The notes: generated by a model from the letters alone, not told the origin. A DNA stretch of 48,506 bases from Candidatus Aenigmatarchaeota archaeon (GCA_016187405.1 JACPJS010000010.1:1-48506); one strand, 5' to 3'; positions 24,647 through 43,220 are shown, counted from the first letter of the stretch. A program made the numbers and translations.

Positions 24647-25789
24647 TTATTTTCCAAAAACAATCGAAACAACATCTTTGTGCTTTAATTGATGGTCTGC
24701 ACCTAACCTTAATTTTGTCCTAGCATCAACACCTGTAATAAACTTATTGCCTAGCTCTGTATGAACTTTGAATGCAAACTCCTTCATTGTAGTTCCATTC
24801 GGGACAAGTATAACATCGGGTAATTTATTTCCATCTTTGTCAGTCAATTTGTTTGCATCGGCAACAGGATACACGGCAATGTAATTAAGAATATCAAATA
24901 CGGATTTGTTCAAACATTCTTGTACACCTGTAGAATTGAACTTGTCAAGAACCTGACTCTTAATATATTCCAAGCCTACCTTTCTAGCAGAGTCTAATTC
25001 ACCAACAATCTCAAAACTGTTTCCATTATATTTTATTAGATATTTTTCATCTGCTTTCTTCAATGCAATTTCAGATTCGGCACTTGTAGGTATCATATTA
25101 GAATAATCCTTTTTCAATTTTTCATAATTTTCCTGCGACGGTTTCAAATCAATCTTATTCGCTGCTATTATGAATGGTTTTGATATTCTCCTAAGCTCTT
25201 TGGAAAAGTTTTCCATGTCTTCAATGGTATATTTTTGCAACGTCTGAGAGACTTCGTTTCTTGTCACACCAAGTCCACTTAATTTTTCCTGGAGCAGAAC
25301 TATCAAATCAGATTCTGAAGATGGTAATTTTAATTTCTCAATATTTCTTTTCACAACAGACTCAAACCATAAATCAATCTCTTCCCGTAGAAATTCTATT
25401 TCCTTTGTTGGATCGAAATTTTCTGTTGGTTTACCTTCTTCATCAGTCATACCAGATGCGTCAATAATCTGAATCATAACAGACGCTTGACGTATATCGT
25501 CCAGGAATTTATTTCCAATTCCTTTTCCCAAATGTGAACCCGGTATCAATCCTCCCACATCTACAAGATTTACTGGAATGTATCTTTTGCCGTTTTTACA
25601 AACACCGTGTTTAGGTTTGCAGGTCGTATTGAATTCCTTGCATATACAATCTATCGTAACATACGCCACACCTTTATTCGGATTTATCGTAGTGAATGGG
25701 ACTGAAGATGTCTTCACATCAATCATAGTCGCTGCTTTGAAGAAACTTGACTTGCCTGCAGACGGTTTACCGATAAGACCGATTATCAT
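24647..25789 (-). CDS. Obg/YchF-family GTPase with C-terminal TGS domain
   Basis: G1 is GLIGKPSAGKSS, G3 is DVGGLIPG and G4 is ANKID, with a TGS-like C-terminus (KHKDVVSIVF). Start taken at ATG 25789. Confidence 0.85.
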   Translation of the reverse strand: MIIGLIGKPSAGKSSFFKAATMIDVKTSSVPFTTINPNKGVAYVTIDCICKEFNTTCKPKHGVCKNGKRYIPVNLVDVGGLIPGSHLGKGIGNKFLDDIRQASVMIQIIDASGMTDEEGKPTENFDPTKEIEFLREEIDLWFESVVKRNIEKLKLPSSESDLIVLLQEKLSGLGVTRNEVSQTLQKYTIEDMENFSKELRRISKPFIIAANKIDLKPSQENYEKLKKDYSNMIPTSAESEIALKKADEKYLIKYNGNSFEIVGELDSARKVGLEYIKSQVLDKFNSTGVQECLNKSVFDILNYIAVYPVADANKLTDKDGNKLPDVILVPNGTTMKEFAFKVHTELGNKFITGVDARTKLRLGADHQLKHKDVVSIVFGK

Positions 25790-25821
25790 ATCAAATAAAC
25801 ATCTAGTCAAGAATTAAAGAG

Positions 25822-26142
25822 TTAGCTTTTTGCCATTGTGTAGATTTCTTTCACCATTCTTTCTATGTTCGCGATTCTCTGGTTGATTGCTTCATATTCC
25901 AATTTCAAACTGTCCATCTGTGCAGACATCAAATCAACTCTGGCTCCTGTATTATCTGCACTGGGATAACTAGTCTGCTGGTTTGGATATTGTGACTGTG
26001 GCGGATAGTTTGTTTGAGGTTGGTATTGTGATTGGTTTGGATAAGATGTTTCATCTTCCTTTTTCTTGAAAAGTTTGGTTGGTAATAGGATTATCTTGAA
26101 TGGCAAAGTAACGACTGATTTTAGAATATCTCCAACTCCCAT
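25822..26142 (-). CDS. Hypothetical protein with Q/P/Y-rich low-complexity linker and C-terminal coiled coil
   Basis: 106 aa: an amphipathic N-terminus, then SYPNQSQYQPQTNYPPQSQYPNQQTSYP, then heptad-like LKLEYEAINQRIANIERMVKEIY. Confidence 0.6.
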   Translation of the reverse strand: MGVGDILKSVVTLPFKIILLPTKLFKKKEDETSYPNQSQYQPQTNYPPQSQYPNQQTSYPSADNTGARVDLMSAQMDSLKLEYEAINQRIANIERMVKEIYTMAKS

Positions 26143-26146
26143 TCAA

Positions 26147-26662
26147 TTACCTCATTACTGCCTCTGCTGAAATTCCAAGTGATTTCTGGATTGCATTTCT
26201 CAAATCTGTCACCTTTATCCTACATTCCTCTATTAGATTTCGTCTCACGTCATTATAAAGAGTTCTCAGGTATATCCATCTCAATGATTTGTAAATCGGG
26301 CTGGTGTTCCACATGTTGTTTTCATCAAAACCAGTTTTTATTTTTCCTGTGATCATTACCGTAACTTCACCATCCTTGTTTGGATCGGGATTGTTCTTTC
26401 CCTGAACTATAACTTCTATAAAGGCTTTCGTCCACATGTCATAACCCTTCACCACTATGAACCTGAACAAAAAGTCTCTCATGGCTCCTGTATTGTCCCA
26501 TCTGAATTCCCTTTCCCAGACATCTTTACCTCTGACATCGAATATCGCTCTTAGAAGTTGGGGTATCGAATGGTAGATACGGAATGGGTTCGGTCCCTTG
26601 TAATCAACTTTAATAATTCTCTCTGGTACCAGACAATCGTCTTCCAATATCCATTTTGCCAT
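26147..26662 (-). CDS. Hypothetical protein, paralog 2 of a tandem pair
   Basis: 171 aa. It shares Y-x-GPNP-x3-IY, EREFRWD, GKI(K/R)T, N-x-W-x2-S-x-IY and IE(E/D)CR blocks with ORF 26667..27194. Confidence 0.7.
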   Translation of the reverse strand: MAKWILEDDCLVPERIIKVDYKGPNPFRIYHSIPQLLRAIFDVRGKDVWEREFRWDNTGAMRDFLFRFIVVKGYDMWTKAFIEVIVQGKNNPDPNKDGEVTVMITGKIKTGFDENNMWNTSPIYKSLRWIYLRTLYNDVRRNLIEECRIKVTDLRNAIQKSLGISAEAVMR

Positions 26663-26666
26663 TTAA

Positions 26667-27194
26667 TCACGTCTTCGGTAGCAAGTTGAAGAAGCTCTTT
26701 AATTCATCACTAAAAGCAAGCAACAGTTCACGGCAGTCCTCGATATATTTCTTTCTAGTGGACTCGTAAATAAATTTATGATAAAATGTTCTAAACATTT
26801 CATAAATCAAACTTCTCTGCCACGTGTTATCTTGAGGGTATTCTGTTCTAATTTTTCCTTCAAAAGTGATTTTAACCGAACCTTCCTTGCCAAATTCCTT
26901 GCTTGGTTTTACAGTACCGTCGATTGTAACAGTAACATCACGGAATGTGTAGAAATCTAGGTCCTTTATAGTCTCCCATCTTACATGGAAGCTTTCACCG
27001 CTTGCCGTCTTGTCCCATCTGAATTCCCTTTCCTGGAGTTCCTTTTCTGTAATGTTGAACAAGGTGTAGAATTGCTTTCTGATAAATTCGTATATCTGCT
27101 GTGGGTTGGGTCCTGTATATTCTATAGTCGCGGCAGGTCTCGGTATGAGGCAGTAATCATGTATCAAAATCCTTGATCTTTGGAATACTGGCAA
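26667..27194 (-). CDS. Hypothetical protein, paralog 1 of a tandem pair
   Basis: 175 aa with a TTG start, which is supported by the alignment of RILIHDYCLIP with WILEDDCLVP of the paralog. It shares the same blocks as ORF 26147..26662. Confidence 0.7.
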   Translation of the reverse strand: MPVFQRSRILIHDYCLIPRPAATIEYTGPNPQQIYEFIRKQFYTLFNITEKELQEREFRWDKTASGESFHVRWETIKDLDFYTFRDVTVTIDGTVKPSKEFGKEGSVKITFEGKIRTEYPQDNTWQRSLIYEMFRTFYHKFIYESTRKKYIEDCRELLLAFSDELKSFFNLLPKT

Positions 27195-27257: not shown

Positions 27258-27443
27258 ATGGTCTGGGATAAGATACTGGGCTGGATACTGACATTGGTAG
27301 GATTGTTCTTCATAGTCGCCATGCCTGGCATGGGTACAGGTGGTCCAGGAAAAGGCTATCAACCAGTTGAATTTGGAAACTCGTTCGTTCTGATAGGAAT
27401 CATTCTGACAGCCATAGGCATATTTCTCATAGTAAAAACTTAA
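27258..27443 (+). CDS. Hypothetical two-helix small membrane protein
   Basis: 61 aa with two hydrophobic helices flanking a Gly/Pro loop (GMGTGGPGKGYQP). It is the first ORF of the plus-strand operon. Confidence 0.5.
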   Translation: MVWDKILGWILTLVGLFFIVAMPGMGTGGPGKGYQPVEFGNSFVLIGIILTAIGIFLIVKT

Positions 27444-27470
27444 TGAAAAGGGAAATACATAATATAATTG

Positions 27471-29288
27471 ATGTCAAACGTATTGTCGCCGCTCAATGAC
27501 CTCATTTTAGATAAAGATCCTGGGTTAGGATTGAATGCAAATCCATTCGAGTCAGAGATATATTTAGATTTGACTGGTCCTCTTGGTTCATTGACTGCAC
27601 AATATTATTCTTTGATGTTCCAGTTGCGTAAAAATGGGTTTGAGGTATTCAAGATGGACGAACAGATCGATGTATCGCCGTCATTCAAACAATATTACGA
27701 TTTGACTCTGCAGCAGAACGCTGCGCTTGAAGCCCAGTTGAAAGCCGGACTAGGGCAGGTTGCAAATGCTATACACGATTATGAACTGATTGCACATGAT
27801 TTGAGAAAATACAAGGAATACCTAGATTATTTCGTGAAAATGGAAGAAGGGGAACATTTGATGAAATCTAAGAAAAAAGGTGATATGGAAAAAGGCGAGC
27901 CAATGAAAAAAGAAGGTGCTCAGCTTTTGAAATCTGTGTTCATTGATCAGGTGGATGCACATACGGGTGAAGGTATTGCACTAAGAACAATTACACAGAG
28001 ATGGCCGACGATAATTGTAGACTTTATGCGATTGGATGACAAGGATATTGACCAGAAAGATATAGCGAAAAAATATCAATTTACAGAAGCTGAAGGATCG
28101 ATACTCGCAACTAAGAACAAAATATTCCTCGAATGGAGGGACAATCTATTCAAACCCACATTGCAGGAAAGATACCAGAATATTTTGAGGTTGACTGAAT
28201 CGAGGAGGAATTCTATTCAAAGATATACTGAAATGTTGAAACCAATCGCTGCAAGATATAAACTGATTACAGATTCCTTGGAGGGTTCGCCCGGAAGAGC
28301 ATTTGCTACAGGAGGATTCTTTCAACCTTCTTCCCAAGCATATTCAATAGACCAAACACGAATTTGGGCCTTCCTCCCGTTCGAGCCTGCTGAAAAGTAC
28401 AAGTACACGAGAGAATTTGTCAATGAAATTCCGATAAGTCAAACAGGATTTAAAAAAGACCACATAGAAGAATTAATTAAAATGGGAAAAATCAAAAAGA
28501 AAGATGAAAAAGTGGATTCATTGCCAATCGAGCCGTCCATCGATGAAATTATATGGAGATATTTCGACAGGGTGCAGGATTATTACAAGGTCAAACTAAC
28601 GATAGGTGATATTTTTGAAGCAAGAAAACGTCTTGTTGATTATTTCAAAATGCACATGCCAGAAGTTTATGGAGGATCACTAAAACCAGGAGGAACAACT
28701 TCTGGAAATACATGGATACTCAGTCCGTATTTTGTATTTCTTGACATACCTTTTATAAGAGCAGTTTTGAGAATGCCTAATGGTGATGAACTGGAAAATT
28801 TGATGTTGTCGAACATGACAGTTCAAAATAGATCACAGAATGTTATCATAGTCAATTTGTTGGAAGTAATAGCACGTGAGAAACAGTTAGAAAACTATAT
28901 CAATCAACTCTTGGGTGAAGTTGGAGTTAGTAATCCCGAAGAAGTTAGAAAAGGGAAGATACCTGAATTTGATACAATTGAAAATATGGCGAAGAAACAG
29001 TATCCTAGAATATTCAAAACTAAAGAAGAGTTGGAAAAGGAAGAAAAGAAAAAAATGGAGAAATTAAAAGACCAGAGACCACCGGTAACAAAGGCTAAGA
29101 ATGTAATTGGAGATTTCCTAAATCTATTCGGAATCAAGCTGGGATTCTTCAGAGGAAGGGGCCCTTACGAAATTGCAATGGACGACAGAATTTCAGAAAT
29201 GTATCAGTTGGAAGCTGCATTCCAGGGTTATCTCTTTGTTCTAAGATATTTACAACAAGGTGCAGGAGTACCTGGAGTAAAGGTATAA
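27471..29288 (+). CDS. Hypothetical 605-aa protein (coiled-coil segments, no recognisable catalytic motif)
   Basis: A long ORF with native codon choice (TTG/TTC/CAG) and an ATG at 27471. The stop overlaps the next start (TAATG). No P-loop or other motif was recognised. Confidence 0.75.
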   Translation: MSNVLSPLNDLILDKDPGLGLNANPFESEIYLDLTGPLGSLTAQYYSLMFQLRKNGFEVFKMDEQIDVSPSFKQYYDLTLQQNAALEAQLKAGLGQVANAIHDYELIAHDLRKYKEYLDYFVKMEEGEHLMKSKKKGDMEKGEPMKKEGAQLLKSVFIDQVDAHTGEGIALRTITQRWPTIIVDFMRLDDKDIDQKDIAKKYQFTEAEGSILATKNKIFLEWRDNLFKPTLQERYQNILRLTESRRNSIQRYTEMLKPIAARYKLITDSLEGSPGRAFATGGFFQPSSQAYSIDQTRIWAFLPFEPAEKYKYTREFVNEIPISQTGFKKDHIEELIKMGKIKKKDEKVDSLPIEPSIDEIIWRYFDRVQDYYKVKLTIGDIFEARKRLVDYFKMHMPEVYGGSLKPGGTTSGNTWILSPYFVFLDIPFIRAVLRMPNGDELENLMLSNMTVQNRSQNVIIVNLLEVIAREKQLENYINQLLGEVGVSNPEEVRKGKIPEFDTIENMAKKQYPRIFKTKEELEKEEKKKMEKLKDQRPPVTKAKNVIGDFLNLFGIKLGFFRGRGPYEIAMDDRISEMYQLEAAFQGYLFVLRYLQQGAGVPGVKV

Positions 29289-31126
29289 TGACATATAATA
29301 TTGCTGTTACTAGTGGCTTGTGGAGCATAGCACGTGGAAGAGATCTTGCTGGAATAAAAGCAAAAATTTCTCAGGTTCTTACACAAGGTGTTAATAGCAT
29401 TCAGGTTGATCTTGACAGCGTTTCTGAATTGACCGAACCTGGAATCGAAGACACGATAAGAAGATTCGTTGATGACCTTCAGGTGAAATGGGTCATGCAT
29501 ACCGAGATCATCGAAGAGACTGCACTTGAGACAGCTATGCAAACTACATGGAGGCATTCTCAGAGAAGATTGCACATGTACTTGGACACGCTGTATGAGA
29601 AATTTGTGAAGAAGGGTCTGAAGAAATTACTGCCAGAATACATAAACTTTCATATTTCGATAATGATGTCGATGGGTTATTTTGGTGAACGTTATAGAAT
29701 CGCTGGTATGCCGATGCTAACTTTTGGTGGGGAGTATGATTGGTCTGCAAAATTTTTGGATATACCTGCAAATGAAGATTTGAAAGACTGGTTTAGAAAA
29801 GATATGGTGATGATAGTAATAGGGCGAGAAGCGCCTATAGCTATCACTCCAACAGAACTTAGAATTAGAACTAGGGGTAACGTCGCTGCAAGAAATTTTC
29901 AAAATATGCAGCGTGAAAATCCTTCTGAATTAGGTAGGCGTGTACAGGAATTTCAAAATAGAAATAATAACAGGCAACCTGATCTTGACAATCCTAATGA
30001 TTTGATACAAATAATGGGCGAGCCGAATGAAAAAGATGTGGGTGATGAGTTGATAAAACAATGGTTGGAATACAGTAGGATGAGATTCAACAGAGGTGCT
30101 ATAACAGACGAAGAGGTCGCATATGCTGTAATAACAAAGTATCTTGAACTAAAGAGAAATGATCCAAAAGAACCTTTATGGAAACTTTTCTTCGGCGATA
30201 AAACAATAGATGAAATGGAGGGAAAAATAGGAGAAAAGAAGAAATGGGAGAAACCATTAATCAACATTGATACAAATGAAATTTATTTACACCCTGATGT
30301 AATTGCTATGGTAGCATGCAGATACATTTTAGGCCATTTCGATTCGGATCCAGGAGAATTCTACTTGGACGAGAGTTACAAAACAAATCCTGATAGAGAC
30401 AAAGATCCATTTTTCAAAAAGAAAGCTATAGAAAAATTAAAAGAGATGGGGCCCAATTTGGTTTTGGTTTTTGAGAATCCTGAAGCCGCGCCAGGATCAG
30501 AAGGATTGAGAAGAGTGTTCCATGCGAAGCACATGTATAATTTTGTCAAGGCTGCGCAGGATGTACTGAAAACAAATCAGATACGTTTGTTGATAGATTT
30601 CAATCATTGGCTCAATCAGGGAATAGATCCTGAAAGAGAAGTTGATCAGGTATCAAAGGAGGCCCCTGATTTCGGGAAATATGTATTCGCAACTCACATA
30701 TACAATCCTGTTGGTGTGCACGAGCACATGCCATTTGAAATCCCATCAGACGAACAATTCAGGATGTATGGTTGGTTATACAAATTACGACAGGTTGGGT
30801 TCAAGGACGGTTTCCTTACGTTTGAAAGGGGTGGTGGGCAGAACATGTTGGAAATAGCAAGATCTGTAATACCTGCATTGAGGGAAATCAGAACTCACCT
30901 AGAGAAAGACATAGCACCCGACAAGCTTCCGATGGAGTTCTTCGGTATATCCCCAGAAGGAATTCTATCTCCACAGAGACAGATGGTCATCATACGAGAG
31001 CATGCAAGAGATCCATTGAGAGGATTGATTCTATCTCCAGAAGAGGAACACACAGCATTGGGCAAAGAAGCACTTTCCAAACCTGGCATGACTCCTGAGA
31101 AATGGAAGAAAGAAGAATTAAGATAG
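29288..31126 (+). CDS. Xylose-isomerase-like (AP endonuclease 2 type) TIM-barrel protein with a large internal insertion
   Basis: Strand motifs line up with the 265-aa TIM-barrel gene at 33285: YINFHIS/LINFHFY, LVLVFENPE/LTVMYENSP, RLLIDFNHW/KVHLDIPHA, ATHIYNP..HEHMPF/IAHIHLHDN..DQHLPL and FLTFERG/ITLEVF. About 250 extra residues lie between the NFH and FEN blocks. Confidence 0.7.
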   Translation: MTYNIAVTSGLWSIARGRDLAGIKAKISQVLTQGVNSIQVDLDSVSELTEPGIEDTIRRFVDDLQVKWVMHTEIIEETALETAMQTTWRHSQRRLHMYLDTLYEKFVKKGLKKLLPEYINFHISIMMSMGYFGERYRIAGMPMLTFGGEYDWSAKFLDIPANEDLKDWFRKDMVMIVIGREAPIAITPTELRIRTRGNVAARNFQNMQRENPSELGRRVQEFQNRNNNRQPDLDNPNDLIQIMGEPNEKDVGDELIKQWLEYSRMRFNRGAITDEEVAYAVITKYLELKRNDPKEPLWKLFFGDKTIDEMEGKIGEKKKWEKPLINIDTNEIYLHPDVIAMVACRYILGHFDSDPGEFYLDESYKTNPDRDKDPFFKKKAIEKLKEMGPNLVLVFENPEAAPGSEGLRRVFHAKHMYNFVKAAQDVLKTNQIRLLIDFNHWLNQGIDPEREVDQVSKEAPDFGKYVFATHIYNPVGVHEHMPFEIPSDEQFRMYGWLYKLRQVGFKDGFLTFERGGGQNMLEIARSVIPALREIRTHLEKDIAPDKLPMEFFGISPEGILSPQRQMVIIREHARDPLRGLILSPEEEHTALGKEALSKPGMTPEKWKKEELR

Positions 31127-31185: not shown

Positions 31186-32046
31186 ATGGTTTTCGAAAAA
31201 CTCGAACAAGATTTGGAAGATACGGAACTTGTAAAGAAGGAAAACAAGGATAACACTATCAATTCAGCCAACAAAGAAACGATAGAAAAGGCTGTTGCGT
31301 TCACAAACTCATTGAGAAAGCAATACGGTGAACTTGTAAAATCAGTTCTTATCTTCGGTTCAAGCGTTAAAGGGACCATGGTTAAGGGTTCTGACATTGA
31401 CATGTGGGTCATTCTTGATGATACTGCGACTAAAGCGTCTCAGGACATCAACAGGATAATCGACCATGCACACATACTGGCAGGTGAGTTCAAAGACATG
31501 CATCTGCAGATCCACACATTGACAGAATTCTGGCAGTCTATAAGAATCGGTTCGCCTGAATTTTCAAACTTTCTTAGATATGGACTTGCAATCTATGACA
31601 CTGGATTCATTAAACCTATCCAAAGAATGTTGCAGATGGGATTGATTCCACCTAGTGACGAGACAATAAGTTTGAAGGCGAGATCATCAATAACAAGATT
31701 CAGAAAAATAAAACAAGAGGTCAAGCTTTTGATTTTCGATTTGAGATACACAATGTTGGACATGGTACAGGCAGTCATCATGCATTATTACAAGGAGACT
31801 CCTGATTACAAGAAAGCACCTGAATTCTTGGAAAAACTTGTGAAACAAAAGAAATTGGAGAAAAAATATGTCGATCTGTTTGTTAAACTGGACAAGTTGT
31901 GGAAGGACATAGATCACAATGAAATAAAGAACGTCACGACTGATCATCTTAATGAAGCCATAGAAACAACAGAAGAGATGATTGAAAGAATGAAGAAACT
32001 TTTGCCAAAAGATTTTGTTGGCGAAGAAATGCCAAAGGAAGGATAG
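31186..32046 (+). CDS. Pol-beta-type nucleotidyltransferase domain protein with helical (HEPN/KNTase_C-like) C-terminal half
   Basis: The NTase motif is GSSVKGTMVKGSDIDMWVILDD. TLTEFW and IYDTGF blocks are shared with the next gene. Confidence 0.8.
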   Translation: MVFEKLEQDLEDTELVKKENKDNTINSANKETIEKAVAFTNSLRKQYGELVKSVLIFGSSVKGTMVKGSDIDMWVILDDTATKASQDINRIIDHAHILAGEFKDMHLQIHTLTEFWQSIRIGSPEFSNFLRYGLAIYDTGFIKPIQRMLQMGLIPPSDETISLKARSSITRFRKIKQEVKLLIFDLRYTMLDMVQAVIMHYYKETPDYKKAPEFLEKLVKQKKLEKKYVDLFVKLDKLWKDIDHNEIKNVTTDHLNEAIETTEEMIERMKKLLPKDFVGEEMPKEG

Positions 32047-32048
32047 AA

Positions 32049-33284
32049 ATGCCGAGAAAAGAAGATGAAAGAGATATTCCTGTAACTGATCCTAGTGAAA
32101 CCAAATTGGAAACCAGAGAACAGAGAATGGAACTTGTTAAAAATTATACAAAGAAAGTCATCGACAAATACGGGCAGTATGTCAAAGCAATTGTAATGAT
32201 GGGTTCTGTTGTGAGAGACGAATTCAAACCAAAAAGTGATATCGATGTTTTTGCAATCGTCGACGACACTACATTCAATCTTACAAACGAAATGTTGGAC
32301 AAGATTGATCAGGACATGCTGAAGATGGCTGATGAGATTCCAGAAGCTTGGATAACTGTAAAGAACGAACATGGTAAGGATGAAAAGATTTGTTTGATAT
32401 CAGTACAACCTGTTTATACATTGACAGAATTCTGGGATTATGCAAGAGTCGCCCATCCAATAATTTACAATTTCATCAAGGAAGGCGTTCCGATTTATGA
32501 TACCGGATTCTTTGCACCAATCAAGAAACTGCTTGAGATGGGAAAGATACCTGCGACAAGAGAGGCTATCGAAAGTTACATGGAAGCTGCACCAAAGAAA
32601 TTGAACCGTGCAAAGACTGTGAAACTTTTGATGTTGGCCGAGGATTGTTATTATGCGATGTTGAACTCTACACAGGCAGTGTTGATGTTCATGGGACTTG
32701 CACCTCCAGTTCCTAGCAAGGCTTATGATGAAGTTATTTTACATTTGGTAAAGACAAACATACTTGAACAACAGTATGCAGATTGGCTGAAAGAAATAAT
32801 TGAAATCAGAAAGAAAATCGAGCACAAGGAACTAATGGATGCGAGTGGTGTATTTGTCGACGAGTGGTTGGAAAAGGCTGAAAAATATGTTGACAAGATG
32901 TTCGGTCTATTGAATGCGCTTGAAATGAGAAAGAAAGAAAAGATTCTCGAAAGAACACATGAGGTAATGTACAAGGCTGCTATAACTGCAATAAAGAGCT
33001 TGAAGAAATTCCCTGAAGACACGAAAGACGCAGATGTTGTTAAGAAAGTTGGTTCTGTATATGACGCATTCAACACAGAACTGGTTCAATCCGGAATACT
33101 CGAAAGTTATTATTCTGACGTGTGGAAAAGGATCGAACAGATGAAGAAATTGTCTGACGAGAAGAAGATTAACGAGGTTCCTGACAGGGATGTTTATGAA
33201 ATGAGAGAGCATGTCAGAAAATTGATTCGTGACTTGGCAAAAGTGTTGAAGGACAAAGGTATATCCGAAGAAAATACGGAATAG
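32049..33284 (+). CDS. Pol-beta-type nucleotidyltransferase domain protein, longer paralog
   Basis: Contains GSVVRDEFKPKSDIDVFAIVDD, TLTEFW and IYDTGF. The C-terminal helical region is extended. Confidence 0.8.
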   Translation: MPRKEDERDIPVTDPSETKLETREQRMELVKNYTKKVIDKYGQYVKAIVMMGSVVRDEFKPKSDIDVFAIVDDTTFNLTNEMLDKIDQDMLKMADEIPEAWITVKNEHGKDEKICLISVQPVYTLTEFWDYARVAHPIIYNFIKEGVPIYDTGFFAPIKKLLEMGKIPATREAIESYMEAAPKKLNRAKTVKLLMLAEDCYYAMLNSTQAVLMFMGLAPPVPSKAYDEVILHLVKTNILEQQYADWLKEIIEIRKKIEHKELMDASGVFVDEWLEKAEKYVDKMFGLLNALEMRKKEKILERTHEVMYKAAITAIKSLKKFPEDTKDADVVKKVGSVYDAFNTELVQSGILESYYSDVWKRIEQMKKLSDEKKINEVPDRDVYEMREHVRKLIRDLAKVLKDKGISEENTE

Positions 33285-34082
33285 ATGCTTATGTCTATCA
33301 AATTTGGTTTGTTAACATATCCTAAACTGAATATAATGGATGAGATTAGGACAATCAAGTCACTTGGATTTGATTATGTGGAAATTGGAATAGAGTTACC
33401 TGAAGGTGCCCCTGAAATTCTGATGAAAAAGAAGAACAAGGTAATGAAACTAGTTTCTGAATTCAGTTATCCTGCAATCGCCCATACAGCATGGTGGATC
33501 GATCTTGGTAGTGGATACGAATATATACGCCAGGCATGGGTAGAGGAATCGAAAAAATGTATCGACACAGCAGAAGCACTTGGACTAAAATTAATCAATT
33601 TTCATTTTTATTCAATCGGGCTGGTAGAAGATTACAAGGCATATCACAGGTTTATTGTCAATAACATCATCAGAAGCCTGAAAGAGATTGTCGAATATGC
33701 AGATAGTAAGGGATTAACTGTAATGTATGAGAATTCTCCTACAAAGAAATCCAATGTAGGGTTTAAGGAATACAAGACAATAATGGACAAAGTTCCGAAA
33801 TTGAAAGTGCATCTGGACATACCTCATGCGTTTGTTGAGAACGGAATGGACGGGATAAAAGAATATCTGTTTTCATTCAAGGATAGAATAGCACACATAC
33901 ATCTACATGACAATGACGGGACTGAAGACCAGCATCTTCCATTGGGTAAAGGTAAGATTGATTTTAAATTGCTCGTGAAATGGCTGCATGAAATAAAATA
34001 CGATAAGACGATTACACTCGAAGTGTTCACTAGCAAAGAAGATGCCAAAGATTCTATGATCAAGTTCAAAAAAATGTTATAG
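33285..34082 (+). CDS. Sugar-phosphate isomerase/epimerase-type (xylose-isomerase-like) TIM-barrel protein
   Basis: 265 aa with NFH, YEN, HLDIPH, HIHLHDNDG..DQHLPLGKGKIDF and TLEV blocks, characteristic of the AP_endonuc_2 fold. Confidence 0.85.
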   Translation: MLMSIKFGLLTYPKLNIMDEIRTIKSLGFDYVEIGIELPEGAPEILMKKKNKVMKLVSEFSYPAIAHTAWWIDLGSGYEYIRQAWVEESKKCIDTAEALGLKLINFHFYSIGLVEDYKAYHRFIVNNIIRSLKEIVEYADSKGLTVMYENSPTKKSNVGFKEYKTIMDKVPKLKVHLDIPHAFVENGMDGIKEYLFSFKDRIAHIHLHDNDGTEDQHLPLGKGKIDFKLLVKWLHEIKYDKTITLEVFTSKEDAKDSMIKFKKML

Positions 34083-40003: not shown

Positions 40004-40037
40004 CACTATTCATAGGAACAGGTCATTTATCAAGGCC
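40004..40037 (-). repeat. 3' half of the 23S rRNA processing stem (bulge-helix-bulge-like)
   Basis: nt 40004-40023 are the perfect reverse complement of 43201-43220 (20 bp). A second short helix pairs aaggcc (40032-40037) with ggcctt (43187-43192) across unpaired bases. Confidence 0.85.
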
Positions 40038-43000
40038 CATCAATCTCAGACGATTAGTAAGAGCCAGCTGAAATTCTCGCTCGAAAGCTTGAATCTTACA
40101 CCGCTCTCCTATCAACGCTATCGTCTATAGCAGTCCTCGTCCAATCACCGGTCCTTGCGAACCAGCAATCGGAATAGTTGTCTATTTTTTCGGATGGTTT
40201 CGTCCTTAGATGCTTTCAGGTCTTATCCATGTATGGCTTAGCTGCCCAGCAATGCGCAAACAACTGGTACACCAGAGGCCACGGGGGGATGTTCCTTTCG
40301 TACTTAACCCTCCTTCCGATCAGACAACTGACACCTCCTGTAGATAGCGACCGAACTGTCTCACAACGTTCTGAACCCAGCTAGCGTCCCCTTTTAACCA
40401 GTGGACACCTGTACCCTTGGCCGCTGCTGCACGGCCAGGAGAGGGGGAGCCGACAACGACGCATCAACGCGCCGGGTCAATTTACTCGCACATTATCTTC
40501 TGGGAAATAAATCGACCCCAAAGAGCTATATGCCAGTGAGCTTTCACCGGCCACGAACCCATTATCCCCGAGGTAGCTTTTCTCATACCACCGGCACCCA
40601 TTAATGGTAACCGATGTATCGCTAACCCGCGCTTTCGCGGTTGAATTCCTTGCTGGTCGGAATCCAATCAGACTTCCTTTTGCGTTTATGCTCTATTCCG
40701 GATTTCTGTCGGGTAATGTGAAATGATAAACCGTAACTCATAAGCTACCTCGCTTATCATCTTTTTTTCAAACATAAAGCTTGTATTCATCATCACGTAC
40801 ACAATTCACACTATGACCCGGATGAGGAAATCTTAGGAGACCCTTGATCCTTTATCGAGGGTGTACCGCCCCAGCCGAACTACCCATCTGATGCTGTTCT
40901 CTTGCAAGTAAGCAATACAATTCTGAAAGGGTAGTGTTACAATTGCCTCTCAGTTTTACCCAAAGGCAAAACCTGATAGCGAGTCCTACCTACACTATGC
41001 AGCCAAAATCGTACCGCAACAACAGACTGTAGTAAAGCTCTACGGGGTCTACGTTTCCCACAGGAGGTCTCAGGCCTATTCACCTGAAAAGCAACTTCAC
41101 TGGGTATCAGTTCAAGACAGTAGAGAAGTCGTTAAGCCATTCAGACGGGCCGTCAATCAAACGGCAAGGGATTACGCTACTTTACGACGGTCAGAGTTAC
41201 CGCCACCGTTTACTAGGGCTTTTTTCGGTTGAACCCGAATTTCACACACTAGTACTGGGTAGGCATCAGAAACTGTACTTATCTTTTCAGACTTGCAGTC
41301 TCAGTTGTTTTTGTTAAACAGTCGCTCCCCTCTTGTTATTGAAACCTACAGTTCCCCTTGCGGAAAACCATAGGCACTCCTTCTCGCGAACTTACGGAGC
41401 CAAATTGCCGAGTTCCTTGAACAGAGTTGTCCCAACACGCCTTCGCCTTCTCAGCGAGTCCACCTGTGACGGTTCTCGGTATGGACATGAAGGATCCTTC
41501 CCGATTCGATTTTCACGGGCTCCTAGAGTCGACAGAACTCTACATACATAGAGCTATTCCTACTTTCCTCTCTTTCTCCTCGTTACAAGACTCCAGAGAA
41601 TTCAGTAGTTAACTTGCGTCTGCCTATCTTGAAGCGTCTCAAATCGGGCTTGCGTTACCGCGCGTACCTCCATGGTATCGGAATATTAACCGATTTCCCT
41701 ATCGTGTTTTTAGATTAGCGAAACACTTAGGACCAACTAACTGCCAGCTGACGAACATTGCTGACAAACCCTTGGACTTTAGGCGGCTGGAATTCTCATC
41801 CAGCTATGTTGCTACTATTGGCAGGATCTTTATTTCTACATGATCTACTCCTGCTCACGCAGAAGCTTCTATTCACGAAGAACACTCATCTACCCTCTCT
41901 TTCGAGAGCTTGAGTATCGATAGCTGACTTAGTCCCTTCCATTTTCAGGGCATAAATCCTCGGTAGGTAAGTTGTTACACACTTCTTAGCTAATGGCTAC
42001 TTCTAAGCCTATAGTCCTACTGTCTGAGGATTCACACTCCCTTCTTCGTTTAGTCAGCATTTAGGGATCTTAACTCAAGTCTGGCTTTTTTTCCTTTTGG
42101 ACGCCGAGCTTACCCCAGCGACCTAACTCCGGTCTTCTACGACTACAAGAGATTCGGAGTTTAACAAGAAAACTGGACCTTTCGATCCGTGGTTTTCTAA
42201 TTAGTATCTCTACCCTCCCGTAAGTCTCAGACCAGGCTGCACCAAGATGCATTTCGATGAGAACCAGCTATCACTAGATTCGATAGGCTTTTCACCCCTA
42301 ACCCCGGATCACCCGAAGGAATGGATCTCACAACCGGTAGCGGACCTCCACCTACCTTTCAGTAGGCTTCATCCTGCCCAGGGTTAGATCATCTAGTTTC
42401 AGGTCCTATCCTAGTAACTTCAGGCACTTTCACACCTTGTCCCACGCAGTTTTTACACTGTTACGGACGTATCGCTTTCGCTTGTGTTCCTTGGCTTAAA
42501 CCAATTAACATCGCTACTAGGATAGACTCCCTGCCCCGTTTTTCGGAACGGACGATACGATCCTGTAATCTATCTTTCGTACCACAAGTTCTCACTTGTT
42601 TCCTTCAAGACAGAACCTTCCGGACCGTATCTGACTATGACCACATTGGTTTCAAGCTCTATTTCACCCTGTTTTCACAGTACTTTTCAGCTTTCAATCG
42701 CTTTACTACTTTGCTATCGGACTTTGGCAATATTTAGAGTTGCTAGTTAATTCTAGCGGATTTATGCACAATATTCAGTGTACATTACTCAGGATACTCG
42801 CCATTTCCCACCAATCTACCTCTACGGGACTATCACCCTCTAAGGTGCCGTTTTCCAACAGACTTTAAGTCGAGAGGTTCAGGGAAGACACGAGTCCTAC
42901 AACACCACATCCATCCTTGCTTTCACAAGGTGTTCGGTTTGCTCTGTTTCGCTTTCGCTCGCCGTTACTCGCGAAATCTCAATTGATTTCTCTTCCTGCG

Positions 43001-43186
43001 GCTACTAAGATGCTTCAATTTACCGCGTTCCTTACCCTTTCGGGTTGACTCTCAACGAGCCATGATTCACATTTAGACATTCCAGGGTCAAATCCTCCTT
43101 GCGGATAACCTGGACTTATCACAGCTTGGCATGTCCTTCTTCAGTCCCAAAGCCTAGCTATCCACCAAGTGGCGTATTTATTGACA
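40038..43186 (-). rRNA. rrl: 23S rRNA (about 3.15 kb; ends +/- 20 nt)
   Basis: On the minus strand I read the 5' block GCCACTTGGTGGATAGCTAGGCTTTGGGACTGAAGAAGGACATGCCAAGCTG. I also read the P-loop CTGGGGCGG, the PTC blocks GGGGATAA and GTCGGCTC, GAGACAGTTCGGTC, and the sarcin-ricin loop AGTACGAAAGGAAC. Confidence 0.92.
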
Positions 43187-43220
43187 GGCCTTATTGACCA
43201 ACCTGTTCCTATGAATAGTG
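43187..43220 (-). repeat. 5' half of the 23S rRNA processing stem
   Basis: It is the partner of 40004-40037 (see that feature). Confidence 0.85.

What the first reader, a model, noticed from the sequence alone, without database searches (positions are those of the whole stretch)
27471..31126. Translationally coupled 605-aa unknown protein and a TIM-barrel carrying an insertion of about 250 residues
The 612-aa protein reproduces, in order, the strand motifs of the neighbouring 265-aa xylose-isomerase-like barrel (NFH, FEN, D-x-NH, H-x-YN..H-x-H-x-P, FE). About 250 residues, rich in Arg, Asn, Glu and Lys, are inserted between barrel strands 4 and 5. Its start overlaps the stop of the 605-aa protein (TAATG), which suggests a stoichiometric complex. 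The putative metal ligands appear retained, so a catalytic role is plausible. The insertion and the partner are uncharacterised.
Basis: partly seen in the sequence, partly recalled or inferred. Interest (0 to 1): 0.65.

Follow-up and report, generated by a model that had tools for sequence, protein, structure and literature searches.

The report
Split TIM-barrel enzyme with coiled-coil partner
Two tightly coupled genes of an uncultured DPANN archaeon (Aenigmatarchaeota) encode a coiled-coil protein of no known fold and a metal-binding TIM-barrel enzyme split by a roughly 270-residue helical insertion, and both sit in an eight-gene block of unknown function kept across the phylum.

Summary
ORF-A (27471-29288, 605 aa) and ORF-B (29288-31126, 612 aa) overlap in TAATG.

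An AlphaFold2 model of ORF-B (pLDDT 84.9) has eight beta-alpha units. Residues 123-391 are inserted after strand 4. Foldseek's best matches are all xylose-isomerase-like barrels.

With the insertion cut out, hhalign matches the neighbouring 265-aa AP_endonuc_2 barrel (92.5%, E 5e-7). In addition, 32 of 67 diverse family members hit Pfam AP_endonuc_2 (best E 4e-17).

H71, H122, E396, D437 and E513 are invariant, and H440, H470 and H480 nearly so. These are eight of the nine endonuclease IV ligand positions. A multi-metal phosphoesterase therefore fits better than a sugar isomerase, but this is inferred.

ORF-A is a long antiparallel coiled-coil stalk on an alpha/beta base and matches no family or fold.

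The two genes lie -4 to +12 nt apart in 68 of 77 loci. They sit in a block with a coiled-coil protein, two paralogous ~175-aa proteins, a 2-TM peptide and two kanamycin-nucleotidyltransferase-like enzymes. ORF-A relatives occur in 214 species genomes; every named one is Aenigmatarchaeota.

A physical complex and the substrate remain untested. I class it as a new variant of a known fold inside an uncharacterised lineage-specific module.

The parts
27471..29288 (+). ORF-A, 605 aa (a TTG at 27468 would give 606). An alpha/beta base (strands 29-37, 58-68, 290-304, 420-434, 440-455) carries a long antiparallel coiled coil (helices 73-132 and 206-271). The tip segment (~150-230: FIDQVDAHTGEG..RWPTII.DF) is very conserved. 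A disordered Lys/Glu-rich stretch spans 484-538. No known family or fold.
   Evidence: ORF. No Pfam or NCBIfam hit. AF2 pLDDT 79, pTM 0.71. Foldseek against PDB gives best E 0.23 (coiled-coil stalks only) and against BFVD best E 0.01, neither significant. 161 homologues. Relatives in 214 GTDB species genomes. Invariant residues from A2.
29286..29290 (+). TAATG junction: the stop of ORF-A overlaps the start of ORF-B by one base.
   Evidence: Sequence. Spacing is -4 to +12 nt in 68 of 77 related loci, with overlaps in 17, often behind a GGTG(A) purine motif.
29288..29653 (+). ORF-B residues 1-122: barrel strands 1-4 (3-8, 37-41, 67-71, 118-122). Carries invariant H71 (strand 3) and H122 (strand 4).
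   Evidence: AF2 model. hhalign register. The PDB profile hit to T. maritima endonuclease IV aligns H71 with H69 and H122 with H109. Invariance.
29654..30460 (+). ORF-B residues 123-391: mostly helical insertion between strand 4 and helix 4. Conserved lid-like parts: W168, Y279 (GAITDEEVAYA), P296/W298 (EPLWKLFF), R345-Y346-x-x-G349-H350 (RYILGHF). The helical arm (~182-262) varies in length and is rich in Arg/Asn.
   Evidence: AF2, mostly pLDDT >90. Alignment A1. Strand-4 His to strand-5 Glu spacing is 176-498 aa in 86 representatives, against 52 in the 265-aa barrel. Coiled-coil Pfam hits fall in this region in the long forms.
30461..30967 (+). ORF-B residues 392-560: barrel strands 5-8 (392-396, 432-437, 466-470, 508-512). 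Carries E396, D437, H440, H470, H478, H480, E513.
   Evidence: The PDB profile hit to AP endonuclease 6khy aligns E396, D437 and H440.
30968..31126 (+). ORF-B residues 561-612 plus stop: a C-terminal tail with a very conserved motif (DPL.G...PEEEH..LG......E.WKKEELR). Predicted to be flexible (pLDDT <50 at 577-589). Candidate docking peptide.
   Evidence: Alignments A1 and A3. AF2. The motif is kept even in 818-862-aa distant homologues.
27258..27443 (+). 61-aa peptide with two hydrophobic helices, directly upstream of ORF-A ('TM57').
   Evidence: Sequence. Found in most related loci in the same place, and duplicated in tandem in L088-L090.
26667..27194 (-). P175, 175 aa, unknown family, transcribed divergently from ORF-A.
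   Evidence: 34% identical to P171. Syntenic in nearly all loci and still next to ORF-B in the rearranged loci L088-L090. No PDB or Pfam hit with a 60-sequence profile.
26147..26662 (-). P171, 171 aa, paralogue of P175.
25822..26142 (-). 106-aa protein: a hydrophobic and basic (possibly amphipathic) N-terminus, a Pro/Gln-rich linker and a C-terminal coiled coil.
   Evidence: Only weak coiled-coil family hits. Syntenic in most loci.
31186..32046 (+). NT1, 286 aa: a pol-beta-type nucleotidyltransferase with a helical C-terminal part. G58-S59 and D70-x-D72 are invariant.
   Evidence: Pfam NTP_transf_2 E 4.9e-8. A7 mean column identity 64%. Follows ORF-B in nearly all loci.
32049..33284 (+). NT2, 411 aa: paralogous nucleotidyltransferase (G52-S53, D64-x-D66) with a longer helical C-terminal part.
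   Evidence: Pfam NTP_transf_2 E 1.4e-7. The nearest solved structure is kanamycin nucleotidyltransferase, over the core only. A6. Synteny.
33285..34082 (+). 265-aa canonical AP_endonuc_2 barrel, MJ1311-like. A neighbour only in the window's close relatives, so not a core member of the block.
   Evidence: Pfam E 5e-39. PDB 3wqo E 8.5e-17. Present after NT2 in the window and 10 of the 87 loci held at that point.

Best explanation
ORF-B is a very divergent member of the xylose-isomerase-like (AP_endonuc_2) TIM-barrel superfamily. The loop between strand 4 and helix 4 has grown into a helical domain of about 270 residues. Part of this domain is a conserved 'lid' that should sit over the catalytic face of the barrel (position inferred). 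The rest is a helical or coiled-coil arm of variable length.

The barrel keeps an endonuclease IV-type set of metal ligands. By analogy with Nfo these would form three sites:
- site 1: H71, H122, E396;
- site 2: E396, D437, H470, E513;
- site 3: H440, H480, plus H478 in some members.

The most likely chemistry is therefore metal-activated hydrolysis of a phosphoester or phosphodiester. A nucleic-acid end or lesion is the leading candidate substrate.

ORF-A is a coiled-coil stalk protein with a conserved tip and no known fold. It is made from the same transcript with translational coupling, and it most likely acts as a scaffold or targeting partner of ORF-B.

Both genes belong to a block kept across Aenigmatarchaeota and some other DPANN archaea. 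The block also holds a coiled-coil protein, two paralogous ~175-aa proteins, a two-helix membrane peptide and a pair of kanamycin-nucleotidyltransferase-like enzymes. This suggests one membrane-tethered multi-protein machine that couples phosphoester cleavage to nucleotidyl transfer.

Shown here: the genes, the fold, the insertion, ligand conservation, coupling and synteny.
Inferred: metal binding, the chemistry, the physical complex, the substrate and membrane tethering.
For: Fold
- AF2 pLDDT 84.9, pTM 0.84, with eight strands each followed by a helix and the insertion at 123-391.
- The best Foldseek matches are all ketose 3-epimerases or xylose isomerases: E down to 5.5e-5, probability 1.0, target TM-score up to 0.69.

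Homology
- hhalign with the insertion removed: 92.5%, E 4.9e-7, 245 columns, ligands in register.
- 32 of 67 diverse members hit PF01261, best E 3.9e-17. P0231 scores 30.0 bits against a cut-off of 31.1.

Ligands
- H71, H122, E396, D437 and E513 are invariant and H440, H470, H480 are >=90% conserved in 86 representatives at 19-44% identity.
- With the broad profile, the three best of 177,635 PDB sequences are endonuclease IV family proteins, aligned on H71/H122 and on E396/D437/H440.

Coupling and synteny
- TAATG overlap.
- Spacing of -4 to +12 nt in 68 of 77 loci.
- ORF-B follows ORF-A in every locus with enough sequence, and NT1 and NT2 follow in nearly all.
- P175, P171 and the membrane peptide stay next to ORF-B even after rearrangement in L088-L090.

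Nucleic-acid hint
- The fused nucleotidyltransferase of L089 carries a helix-hairpin-helix domain: HHH_5 E 2.3e-5, and AF1548-like_C at 24.4 bits against a cut-off of 23.9.

Core-genome character
- G+C is the same as the surroundings.
- Housekeeping neighbours.
- No PADLOC or meaningful PHROG hits.
Against: - The window's own ORF-B has no Pfam, NCBIfam or PDB sequence hit.
- The endonuclease IV hits are individually weak (E 0.011-0.04).
- The best structural matches are sugar epimerases, not nucleases.
- The ninth Nfo ligand (D229) has no conserved counterpart. H478 is lost in distant orthologues.
- The proteins are not basic (pI 5.5-6.7), so there is no general nucleic-acid-binding signal.
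- I could not read model coordinates. Ligand geometry and the position of the lid over the active site are therefore unverified.
- No co-fold, no expression data (only DNA metagenomes hold the locus) and no experiment.
- In L088 and L089 no ORF-A lies next to ORF-B, so an obligate 1:1 complex is not required everywhere.
Confidence: 0.55

Rival explanations
1. ORF-B is a sugar or ketose isomerase or epimerase (or another small-molecule enzyme of the AP_endonuc_2 superfamily, such as a dehydratase). It uses one or two metals, and the insertion forms a substrate-specific cap. The neighbouring genes are then functionally unrelated or serve glycan or cofactor chemistry.
For: The best Foldseek matches are D-psicose, D-tagatose and L-ribulose 3-epimerases and xylose isomerases. 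The E396-D437-H470-E513 core equals the epimerase Mn site, as aligned to PcDTE through the 265-aa barrel. D-x-x-H is also present in the epimerases. In the window's clade a second barrel follows in the same gene row; its best NCBIfam hits are epimerases.
Against: The additional invariant His on strands 3 and 4 and after strand 7 are absent from the epimerases in the same alignment: PcDTE has C/G and C at those places. The sequence-profile hits go to endonuclease IV, not to epimerases. No sugar-metabolism gene lies in the conserved block.
Confidence: 0.2
2. ORF-B is a non-catalytic, structural barrel (a pseudoenzyme). Together with ORF-A and the other coiled-coil and membrane proteins it builds a lineage-specific cytoskeletal, division or cell-surface attachment structure of these episymbiotic archaea. 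The metal site serves only for stability.
For: Coiled-coil content is high in ORF-A, in the 106-aa protein and in the ORF-B insertion of the long forms. A membrane peptide is present. The family is restricted to DPANN. Castelle et al. 2021 note that many DPANN lineage-specific families are predicted to be membrane-bound or extracellular (PMC8204110).
Against: Eight ligand positions are invariant or nearly so at about 20% overall identity, which is typical of a working active site. Two nucleotidyltransferases with intact G-S and D-x-D motifs are co-conserved. No signal peptide or surface-protein domain was found in ORF-A or ORF-B.
Confidence: 0.12
3. The block is a defence or mobile module, such as a nucleotidyltransferase-based toxin-antitoxin or abortive-infection system with a nuclease effector, rather than a housekeeping machine.
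For: NT1 and NT2 give weak hits to MntA antitoxin, CBASS cyclase, Hailong HalB and PADLOC candidate families. HEPN and HepT-like traces occur in their C-terminal parts. ORF-B is nuclease-like.
Against: The gene order is the same next to the same housekeeping genes (Obg-like GTPase, GatDE, TFIIB, histone, IF5A) in genomes across a phylum. There is no compositional anomaly. ORF-A, ORF-B, P175 and P171 have no PADLOC hit. NT1 and NT2 are unusually conserved, with 64% and 51% mean column identity, unlike fast-evolving defence genes.
Confidence: 0.05

Closest known systems
Endonuclease IV (Nfo, AP endonuclease family 2; e.g. T. maritima 2x7v/4hno and the 'probable AP endonuclease' 6khy)
   Same: (beta-alpha)8 barrel of the same superfamily. 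His on strand 3, His on strand 4, Glu on strand 5, D-x-x-H on strand 6, His on strand 7, His after strand 7 and Glu on strand 8, in the same order. These were aligned directly to H69 and H109 of the T. maritima enzyme and to the E...D-x-x-H of 6khy, and through the 265-aa barrel.
   Different: ORF-B has 180-500 residues between the strand-4 His and the strand-5 Glu, against about 36 in Nfo. The Asp of the D-x-H motif is not conserved. ORF-B has a long conserved C-terminal tail. It gives no hit to the NCBIfam nfo models. The PDB E-values are only 0.01-0.04. DNA-binding loops were not examined.
Ketose 3-epimerases and xylose isomerases (Pfam PF01261 AP_endonuc_2 / xylose isomerase-like TIM barrel)
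   Same: These are the best structural matches: Foldseek E 5.5e-5, probability 1.0, target TM-score up to 0.69. The E-D-H-E metal core is shared. 32 of 67 family members hit the Pfam model.
   Different: About 8% identity. The epimerases lack the strand-3, strand-4 and post-strand-7 His residues. They have no insertion, no partner protein and no such gene neighbourhood.
MJ1311 (PDB 3wqo) and the window's own 265-aa barrel
   Same: Archaeal AP_endonuc_2 barrels that carry the same extended His-rich ligand set. The 265-aa barrel is the profile that ORF-B matches once the insertion is removed.
   Different: Ordinary size (265-293 aa), no insertion, detectable by plain searches. The 265-aa gene adjoins the block only in the window's close relatives.
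Bacterial and archaeal family X DNA polymerases (a pol-beta nucleotidyltransferase fused to a PHP multi-metal phosphoesterase); comparison from general knowledge, not tested here
   Same: They pair a pol-beta-type nucleotidyltransferase with a His/Asp/Glu multi-metal phosphoesterase barrel. One fused nucleotidyltransferase of the block carries a helix-hairpin-helix domain.
   Different: The barrel here is the AP_endonuc_2 type, not PHP. The nucleotidyltransferases are minimal and kanamycin-nucleotidyltransferase-like, without polymerase fingers or thumb. The components are separate proteins.
Aenigmarchaeota lineage-specific 'module 128' of Castelle et al. 2021 (PMC8204110)
   Same: A set of protein families restricted to Aenigmarchaeota and 'completely lacking functional predictions'. 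That description fits the families found here.
   Different: I could not check that these particular families are in module 128. The paper assigns no fold or function.

Membership tests
Xylose isomerase-like TIM barrel superfamily (Pfam PF01261 AP_endonuc_2) | (beta-alpha)8 barrel fold similar to solved members | tested here: met
   The AF2 model has eight strand-helix units. The best Foldseek matches are all members, with probability 1.0 and E down to 5.5e-5.
Xylose isomerase-like TIM barrel superfamily (Pfam PF01261 AP_endonuc_2) | Match to the family profile | tested here: inconclusive
   The window protein has no PF01261 hit at E <= 1. However, 32 of 67 homologues do (best E 3.9e-17), and hhalign without the insertion gives 92.5%, E 4.9e-7. 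Membership follows by transitivity, not by a direct hit.
Xylose isomerase-like TIM barrel superfamily (Pfam PF01261 AP_endonuc_2) | Conserved Glu (strand 5), Asp (strand 6), His (strand 7), Glu (strand 8) metal core | tested here: met
   E396, D437 and E513 are invariant and H470 is >=90% conserved in 86 representatives. They are in register with the 265-aa barrel.
Endonuclease IV (Nfo) family | Nine ligands of the trinuclear site (E. coli Nfo H69, H109, E145, D179, H182, H216, D229, H231, E261; numbering recalled from the literature) | tested here: inconclusive
   Eight positions are kept: H71, H122, E396, D437, H440, H470, H480, E513. The D229 position is not conserved: it is H478 in the window and A, Q or M in distant orthologues. 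Geometry was not checked.
Endonuclease IV (Nfo) family | Match to curated nfo models (NCBIfam TIGR00587, PRK01060) | tested here: not met
   No NCBIfam hit for ORF-B at E <= 1. The 265-aa neighbour does hit nfo at 7.9e-10.
Endonuclease IV (Nfo) family | AP-site incision or 3'-diesterase activity on DNA | not testable with these tools
   Needs biochemistry.
Ketose 3-epimerase family | Match to curated epimerase models and substrate-binding residues | tested here: not met
   No NCBIfam epimerase hit for ORF-B. The structural similarity concerns the fold only, at about 8% identity.
SMC/Rad50-like coiled-coil ATPases (considered for ORF-A) | ABC-type ATPase head with Walker A and B motifs at the ends of the coiled coil | tested here: not met
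   No Pfam or NCBIfam ATPase hit. I saw no G-x-x-G-x-G-K-[ST] motif on reading the sequence. The Foldseek similarity is limited to the coiled coil (E 0.27).
Pol-beta-type minimal nucleotidyltransferases, kanamycin-nucleotidyltransferase-like (NT1, NT2) | h-G-[GS] and D-x-D catalytic motifs, and a profile match | tested here: met
   PF01909 at E 4.9e-8 and 1.4e-7. Invariant G58-S59 and D70/D72 in NT1, and G52-S53 and D64/D66 in NT2. The best PDB hit is kanamycin nucleotidyltransferase, E 1.2e-10.

The most novel reading that the evidence does not exclude
The eight-gene block encodes a previously unknown, membrane-tethered nucleic-acid end-processing or salvage machine specific to Aenigmatarchaeota and related DPANN archaea. 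An endonuclease IV-like nuclease with a coiled-coil arm (ORF-B) sits on a stalk-shaped scaffold of new fold (ORF-A). It cleaves or cleans nucleic-acid ends, which a heterodimer of kanamycin-nucleotidyltransferase-like enzymes then extends or tags. The P175/P171 pair and the 2-TM peptide anchor the assembly at the membrane. Such a machine could process host-derived DNA or RNA in organisms thought to have little capacity for nucleotide synthesis.
Probability: 0.15. Interest if true: 0.8.

Novelty: new variant of a known kind. Interest (0 to 1): 0.55.

Why it matters
Aenigmatarchaeota are uncultured, small-genome DPANN archaea, and their lineage-specific genes have had no functional prediction at all (Castelle et al. 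2021, PMC8204110).

This work gives the first fold and active-site assignment to one of those families: an endonuclease IV-type multi-metal barrel with a large lid and arm insertion. It also shows that this protein is locked into a roughly 8-kb block of eight genes. On contigs of about 0.79 Mb that is close to 1% of the DNA, and the block is kept across 214 species-level genomes.

Retaining that much DNA in a reduced genome argues for an important, lineage-defining function. The catalytic barrel and the two nucleotidyltransferases offer concrete handles for biochemistry.

ORF-A, P175 and P171 remain without any recognisable relative and are good targets for structure determination.

The practical lesson for annotation is that a long insertion can hide a common fold from ordinary profile searches.

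Tried and rejected
- BLASTP of ORF-B against the 265-aa barrel: nothing (E 3.7).
- phmmer of ORF-B, and the A1 profile, against PDB sequences: no hit at E <= 10.
- Full-length global hhalign of ORF-B against the barrel profile: 4.5% probability. The insertion wrecks the alignment, and only excising it worked.
- ORF-A: no Pfam or NCBIfam hit and no PADLOC hit. PHROGs gives one weak coiled-coil hit (E 0.0025), PDB sequences nothing below E 0.18, Foldseek PDB nothing below E 0.23 and Foldseek viral nothing below E 0.01. All of these are coiled-coil noise.
- P175/P171 60-sequence profile: no PDB hit below E 0.15 and no recurrent Pfam family. A database search returned only unnamed or Aenigmatarchaeota proteins. 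I do not rely on it.
- Search for an insertion-free ancestor: none among the best 150 of 206 representatives. The short entries are fragments.
- Transcript evidence: only groundwater DNA metagenomes hold the locus.
- Literature: no paper combines DPANN with a xylose isomerase-like barrel. Two surveys of lineage-specific families give no function.
- Defence system or prophage: rejected on synteny, composition and the lack of hits.
- Co-folding of ORF-A with ORF-B: not possible with the tools (single chains only, cap reached).
It was redone with 67 members.

Full report
**1. The observation**

The window carries two head-to-tail ORFs on the + strand. ORF-A runs 27468/27471..29288 (606 aa from TTG, 605 aa from ATG) and ORF-B runs 29288..31126 (612 aa). 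The junction reads TAATG at 29286-29290, so stop and start share one base.

The 265-aa protein at 33285..34082 is a clear Pfam AP_endonuc_2 member (E 5e-39). Its best solved relative is MJ1311, PDB 3wqo (E 8.5e-17).

ORF-A and ORF-B have no Pfam or NCBIfam hit. ORF-B has no PDB sequence hit at E <= 10, and ORF-A has none below E 0.18. BLASTP of ORF-B against the 265-aa barrel finds nothing (E 3.7).

**2. ORF-B is a xylose-isomerase-like barrel with an insertion after strand 4**

A database search found 33 homologues, all unnamed or labelled Aenigmarchaeota/Aenigmatarchaeota. They were aligned as A1.

AlphaFold2 on that alignment gives a confident model (pLDDT 84.9, pTM 0.84). It has eight strands, each followed by a helix: 3-8, 37-41, 67-71 and 118-122, then 392-396, 432-437, 466-470 and 508-512. 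Residues 123-391 lie between the fourth and fifth strands and form a mostly helical domain with pLDDT mostly above 90.

Foldseek against the PDB returns, as its best matches, only D-psicose, D-allulose, D-tagatose and L-ribulose 3-epimerases and xylose isomerases. E-values go down to 5.5e-5, probability is 1.0, and the TM-score normalised to the target is 0.55-0.69. Alignments span about 560 columns, that is, across the insertion.

An independent sequence test used hhalign. The full-length family alignment fails against a small AP_endonuc_2 profile (4.5%). That profile was built from the 265-aa protein, nine orthologues and PDB fragments of MJ1311, T. maritima endonuclease IV, D-tagatose epimerase and 7cj9. 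With residues 136-379 excised, the comparison gives 92.5% probability, E 4.9e-7, over 245 columns.

A profile search of 1.84 billion cluster representatives found 206 family members, 511-862 aa long. Scanning 67 diverse ones against Pfam, 32 hit PF01261 AP_endonuc_2, with a best E of 3.9e-17. The barrel assignment therefore rests on fold, profile-profile and curated-profile evidence.

The distance from the strand-4 His to the strand-5 Glu is 273 residues in the window protein. It ranges from 176 to 498 in 86 representatives, against 52 in the 265-aa barrel. The insertion is thus universal in the family but variable in length. No insertion-free full-length member appears among the best 150 representatives.

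In the long forms the variable part is an extended Glu/Lys-rich coiled coil. In the window it is the Arg/Asn-rich stretch at about 185-262.

**3. The active site**

Across 86 representatives at 19-44% identity to the window protein, H71, H122, E396, D437 and E513 are invariant. H440, H470 and H480 are at least 90% conserved.

The hhalign register pairs them with residues of the 265-aa barrel as follows:
- H71 with the His of AIAHT;
- H122 with the His of NFH;
- E396 with the Glu of YEN;
- D437 and H440 with LDIPH;
- H470 with the middle His of HIHLHD;
- H480 with the His of DQH;
- E513 with the Glu of LEV.

phmmer aligns those same 265-aa residues with H69, H109, the Glu of LLEN, D-T-C-H, the His of IHLND and the D-R-H of T. 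maritima endonuclease IV.

With the broad family profile A3, the three best hits among 177,635 PDB sequences are all endonuclease IV family proteins. 6khy (E 0.011) aligns E396, D437 and H440. 4hno and 2x7v (E 0.041) align H71 with H69 and H122 with H109. These E-values are weak one by one, but the hits are consistent and in register.

The ligand set is therefore the extended endonuclease IV/MJ1311 type, with eight of the nine Nfo positions. It is not the four-ligand E-D-H-E set of the ketose epimerases, which lack the strand-3 and strand-4 His in the same alignment. The ninth position (Nfo D229) is H478 in the window but is not conserved in distant orthologues.

I infer a two- or three-metal phosphoesterase. 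Metal binding and chemistry were not tested. I could not read model coordinates, so I could not check geometry.

The insertion contains strongly conserved aromatic and charged residues: W168, Y279, P296/W298, R345, Y346 and H350. An insertion after strand 4 emerges on the catalytic face of a TIM barrel, so these residues probably form a substrate lid. This too is inferred.

The C-terminal tail (DPL.G..PEEEH..LG...E.WKKEELR) is among the most conserved parts of the protein, yet it is predicted to be flexible. That combination is typical of a docking peptide.

**4. ORF-A**

There are 161 homologues, all unnamed or Aenigmatarchaeota. The AF2 model (pLDDT 79, pTM 0.71) has these parts:
- a sheet of long strands (29-37, 58-68, 290-304, 420-434, 440-455);
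- two helices of 60 and 66 residues (73-132 and 206-271) that form an antiparallel coiled-coil stalk;
- a very conserved segment at the distal tip (about 150-230, including D159, D162, H164, R177-W178-P179-T180 and D184-F185);
- a disordered Lys/Glu-rich region at 484-538.

Foldseek finds nothing significant in the PDB (best E 0.23, dynein stalk and SMC coiled coils) or among viral models (best E 0.01). There is no ATPase motif. ORF-A is best described as a stalk-shaped scaffold of unknown fold with a conserved tip.

**5. Coupling and gene neighbourhood**

A scan of one genome per GTDB species found ORF-A relatives in 214 genomes. All of those listed are labelled Aenigmatarchaeota or 'uncultured archaeon'.

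In the 80 loci fetched, plus earlier ones, HMMs built here show the following order in the great majority:
- on the minus strand: coiled-coil protein (~70-140 aa), P171, P175;
- on the plus strand: 2-TM peptide (~55 aa), ORF-A, ORF-B, NT1, NT2.

ORF-B directly follows ORF-A wherever sequence is available. The A-stop to B-start distance is -4 to +12 nt in 68 of 77 loci, with overlaps in 17, frequently behind a GGTG(A) purine motif.

The neighbours are housekeeping genes: Obg-like GTPase, GatD/E, TFIIB, histone and IF5A. G+C is unremarkable. No PADLOC or meaningful PHROG hits exist for ORF-A, ORF-B, P175 or P171. This is core genome, not an island.

More distant homologues of 818-862 aa, one of them labelled 'DPANN group archaeon', sit in rearranged loci:
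- L088: P175, a duplicated membrane peptide and ORF-B, with no ORF-A between them;
- L089: membrane peptide, P175, P171, a coiled-coil protein, ORF-B and a single 520-aa fused nucleotidyltransferase;
- L090: ORF-A and the membrane peptide, divergent from P175, P171 and ORF-B.

The association of ORF-B with P175, P171 and the membrane peptide therefore survives rearrangement, as does its association with ORF-A and with the nucleotidyltransferases in part of these loci. This argues for one functional module. It also shows that immediate A-B coupling is a feature of Aenigmatarchaeota and not an absolute requirement.

The 265-aa barrel follows NT2 only in the window and in 10 of the 87 loci held at that point, mainly the window's near clade. 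It is not a core member of the block.

**6. The other members**

- P175 and P171 are paralogues (34% identity). They have no detectable relatives outside the family.
- NT1 and NT2 are paralogous pol-beta-type nucleotidyltransferases with intact G-S and D-x-D motifs. They are unusually conserved, with 64% and 51% mean column identity.
- The nearest solved relative of NT2 is kanamycin nucleotidyltransferase, over the catalytic core only. That enzyme works as a dimer (general knowledge), so an NT1/NT2 heterodimer is plausible.
- The fused nucleotidyltransferase of L089 carries an N-terminal helix-hairpin-helix domain: HHH_5 E 2.3e-5, and AF1548-like_C at 24.4 bits, above its cut-off. This is one hint towards a nucleic-acid substrate.
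- Against that hint, none of the proteins is basic.

**7. Mechanism and rivals**

The best-supported reading has four parts:
- ORF-B is a multi-metal phosphoesterase of the AP_endonuc_2 superfamily with a lid-and-arm insertion.
- It is co-translated with a coiled-coil scaffold, ORF-A.
- Both work within a membrane-associated module that also contains a nucleotidyltransferase pair.
- Phosphoester cleavage coupled to nucleotidyl transfer on nucleic-acid ends is the leading specific idea.

This pairing resembles the nucleotidyltransferase plus metal-phosphoesterase combination of family X polymerases with PHP domains. That is a comparison from general knowledge and was not tested here.

The rivals are:
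- a sugar or small-molecule isomerase, favoured by the structural matches and disfavoured by the ligand pattern and context;
- a structural pseudoenzyme in a cytoskeletal or attachment apparatus, disfavoured by ligand invariance;
- a defence module, disfavoured by synteny and conservation.

**8. Novelty**

Large insertions in TIM barrels are common, and the superfamily is well known, so the barrel is a new variant of a known kind.

What is new is the assignment itself. These families have been reported only as lineage-specific proteins without prediction (PMC8204110), and no paper links DPANN to a xylose isomerase-like barrel. Also new are the endonuclease IV-type site and the definition of the conserved eight-gene block. 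ORF-A, P175 and P171 remain orphans.

No expression data exist, since only groundwater DNA metagenomes hold the locus. No co-fold could be run.

Noticed in passing
window 25822-27194 (-) and 27258-27443 (+): A coiled-coil protein, two paralogous ~175-aa proteins (34% identical) and a 61-aa two-helix membrane peptide lie divergently upstream of ORF-A. They are syntenic across the phylum and stay beside ORF-B even in rearranged distant loci. A 60-sequence profile finds no family or solved relative.
   Followed up: yes
window 31186-33284 (+): Two paralogous kanamycin-nucleotidyltransferase-like enzymes follow ORF-B, 2 nt apart from each other. They are more conserved across the phylum (64% and 51% mean column identity) than ORF-A or ORF-B, and their acceptor substrate is unknown.
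   Followed up: partly
L089:12537-14099 (GCA_053998655.1): In a distant lineage the two nucleotidyltransferases are replaced by one 520-aa protein with an N-terminal helix-hairpin-helix domain. Uracil-DNA glycosylase, endonuclease V and a DHH (RecJ-like) phosphoesterase lie 5-8 kb upstream.
   Followed up: partly
window 33285-34082 (+): The 265-aa barrel is MJ1311-like (3wqo, E 8.5e-17). By alignment it carries the endonuclease IV-type ligand positions from strand 3 to the D-x-H motif, plus a strand-8 Glu. Even so, its best NCBIfam hits are sugar epimerases, far below their cut-offs, so its function is also open.
   Followed up: partly
window 40034-43190 (-) and 47881-47953 (-): A complete archaeal 23S rRNA (3157 nt against a 2987-position model, so possibly carrying an insertion) lies 4.7 kb from a tRNA-Ala(TGC) on the same strand, with protein ORFs in between. 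No 16S or 5S rRNA match was found in the window, which suggests an unlinked or interrupted rRNA operon.
   Followed up: no
L088:990-3578, L089:10001-12457, L090:10001-12574: ORF-B homologues of 818-862 aa have the insertion expanded into a long Glu/Lys-rich coiled coil. In L088 and L089 no ORF-A gene is adjacent, which raises the question whether the longer arm substitutes for ORF-A.
   Followed up: partly
window 24647-25810 (-): An Obg-like (YchF/YGR210-type) GTPase with a TGS domain lies near the block in the window and in L001, L003, L005 and L007. This may be simple conserved gene order.
   Followed up: no
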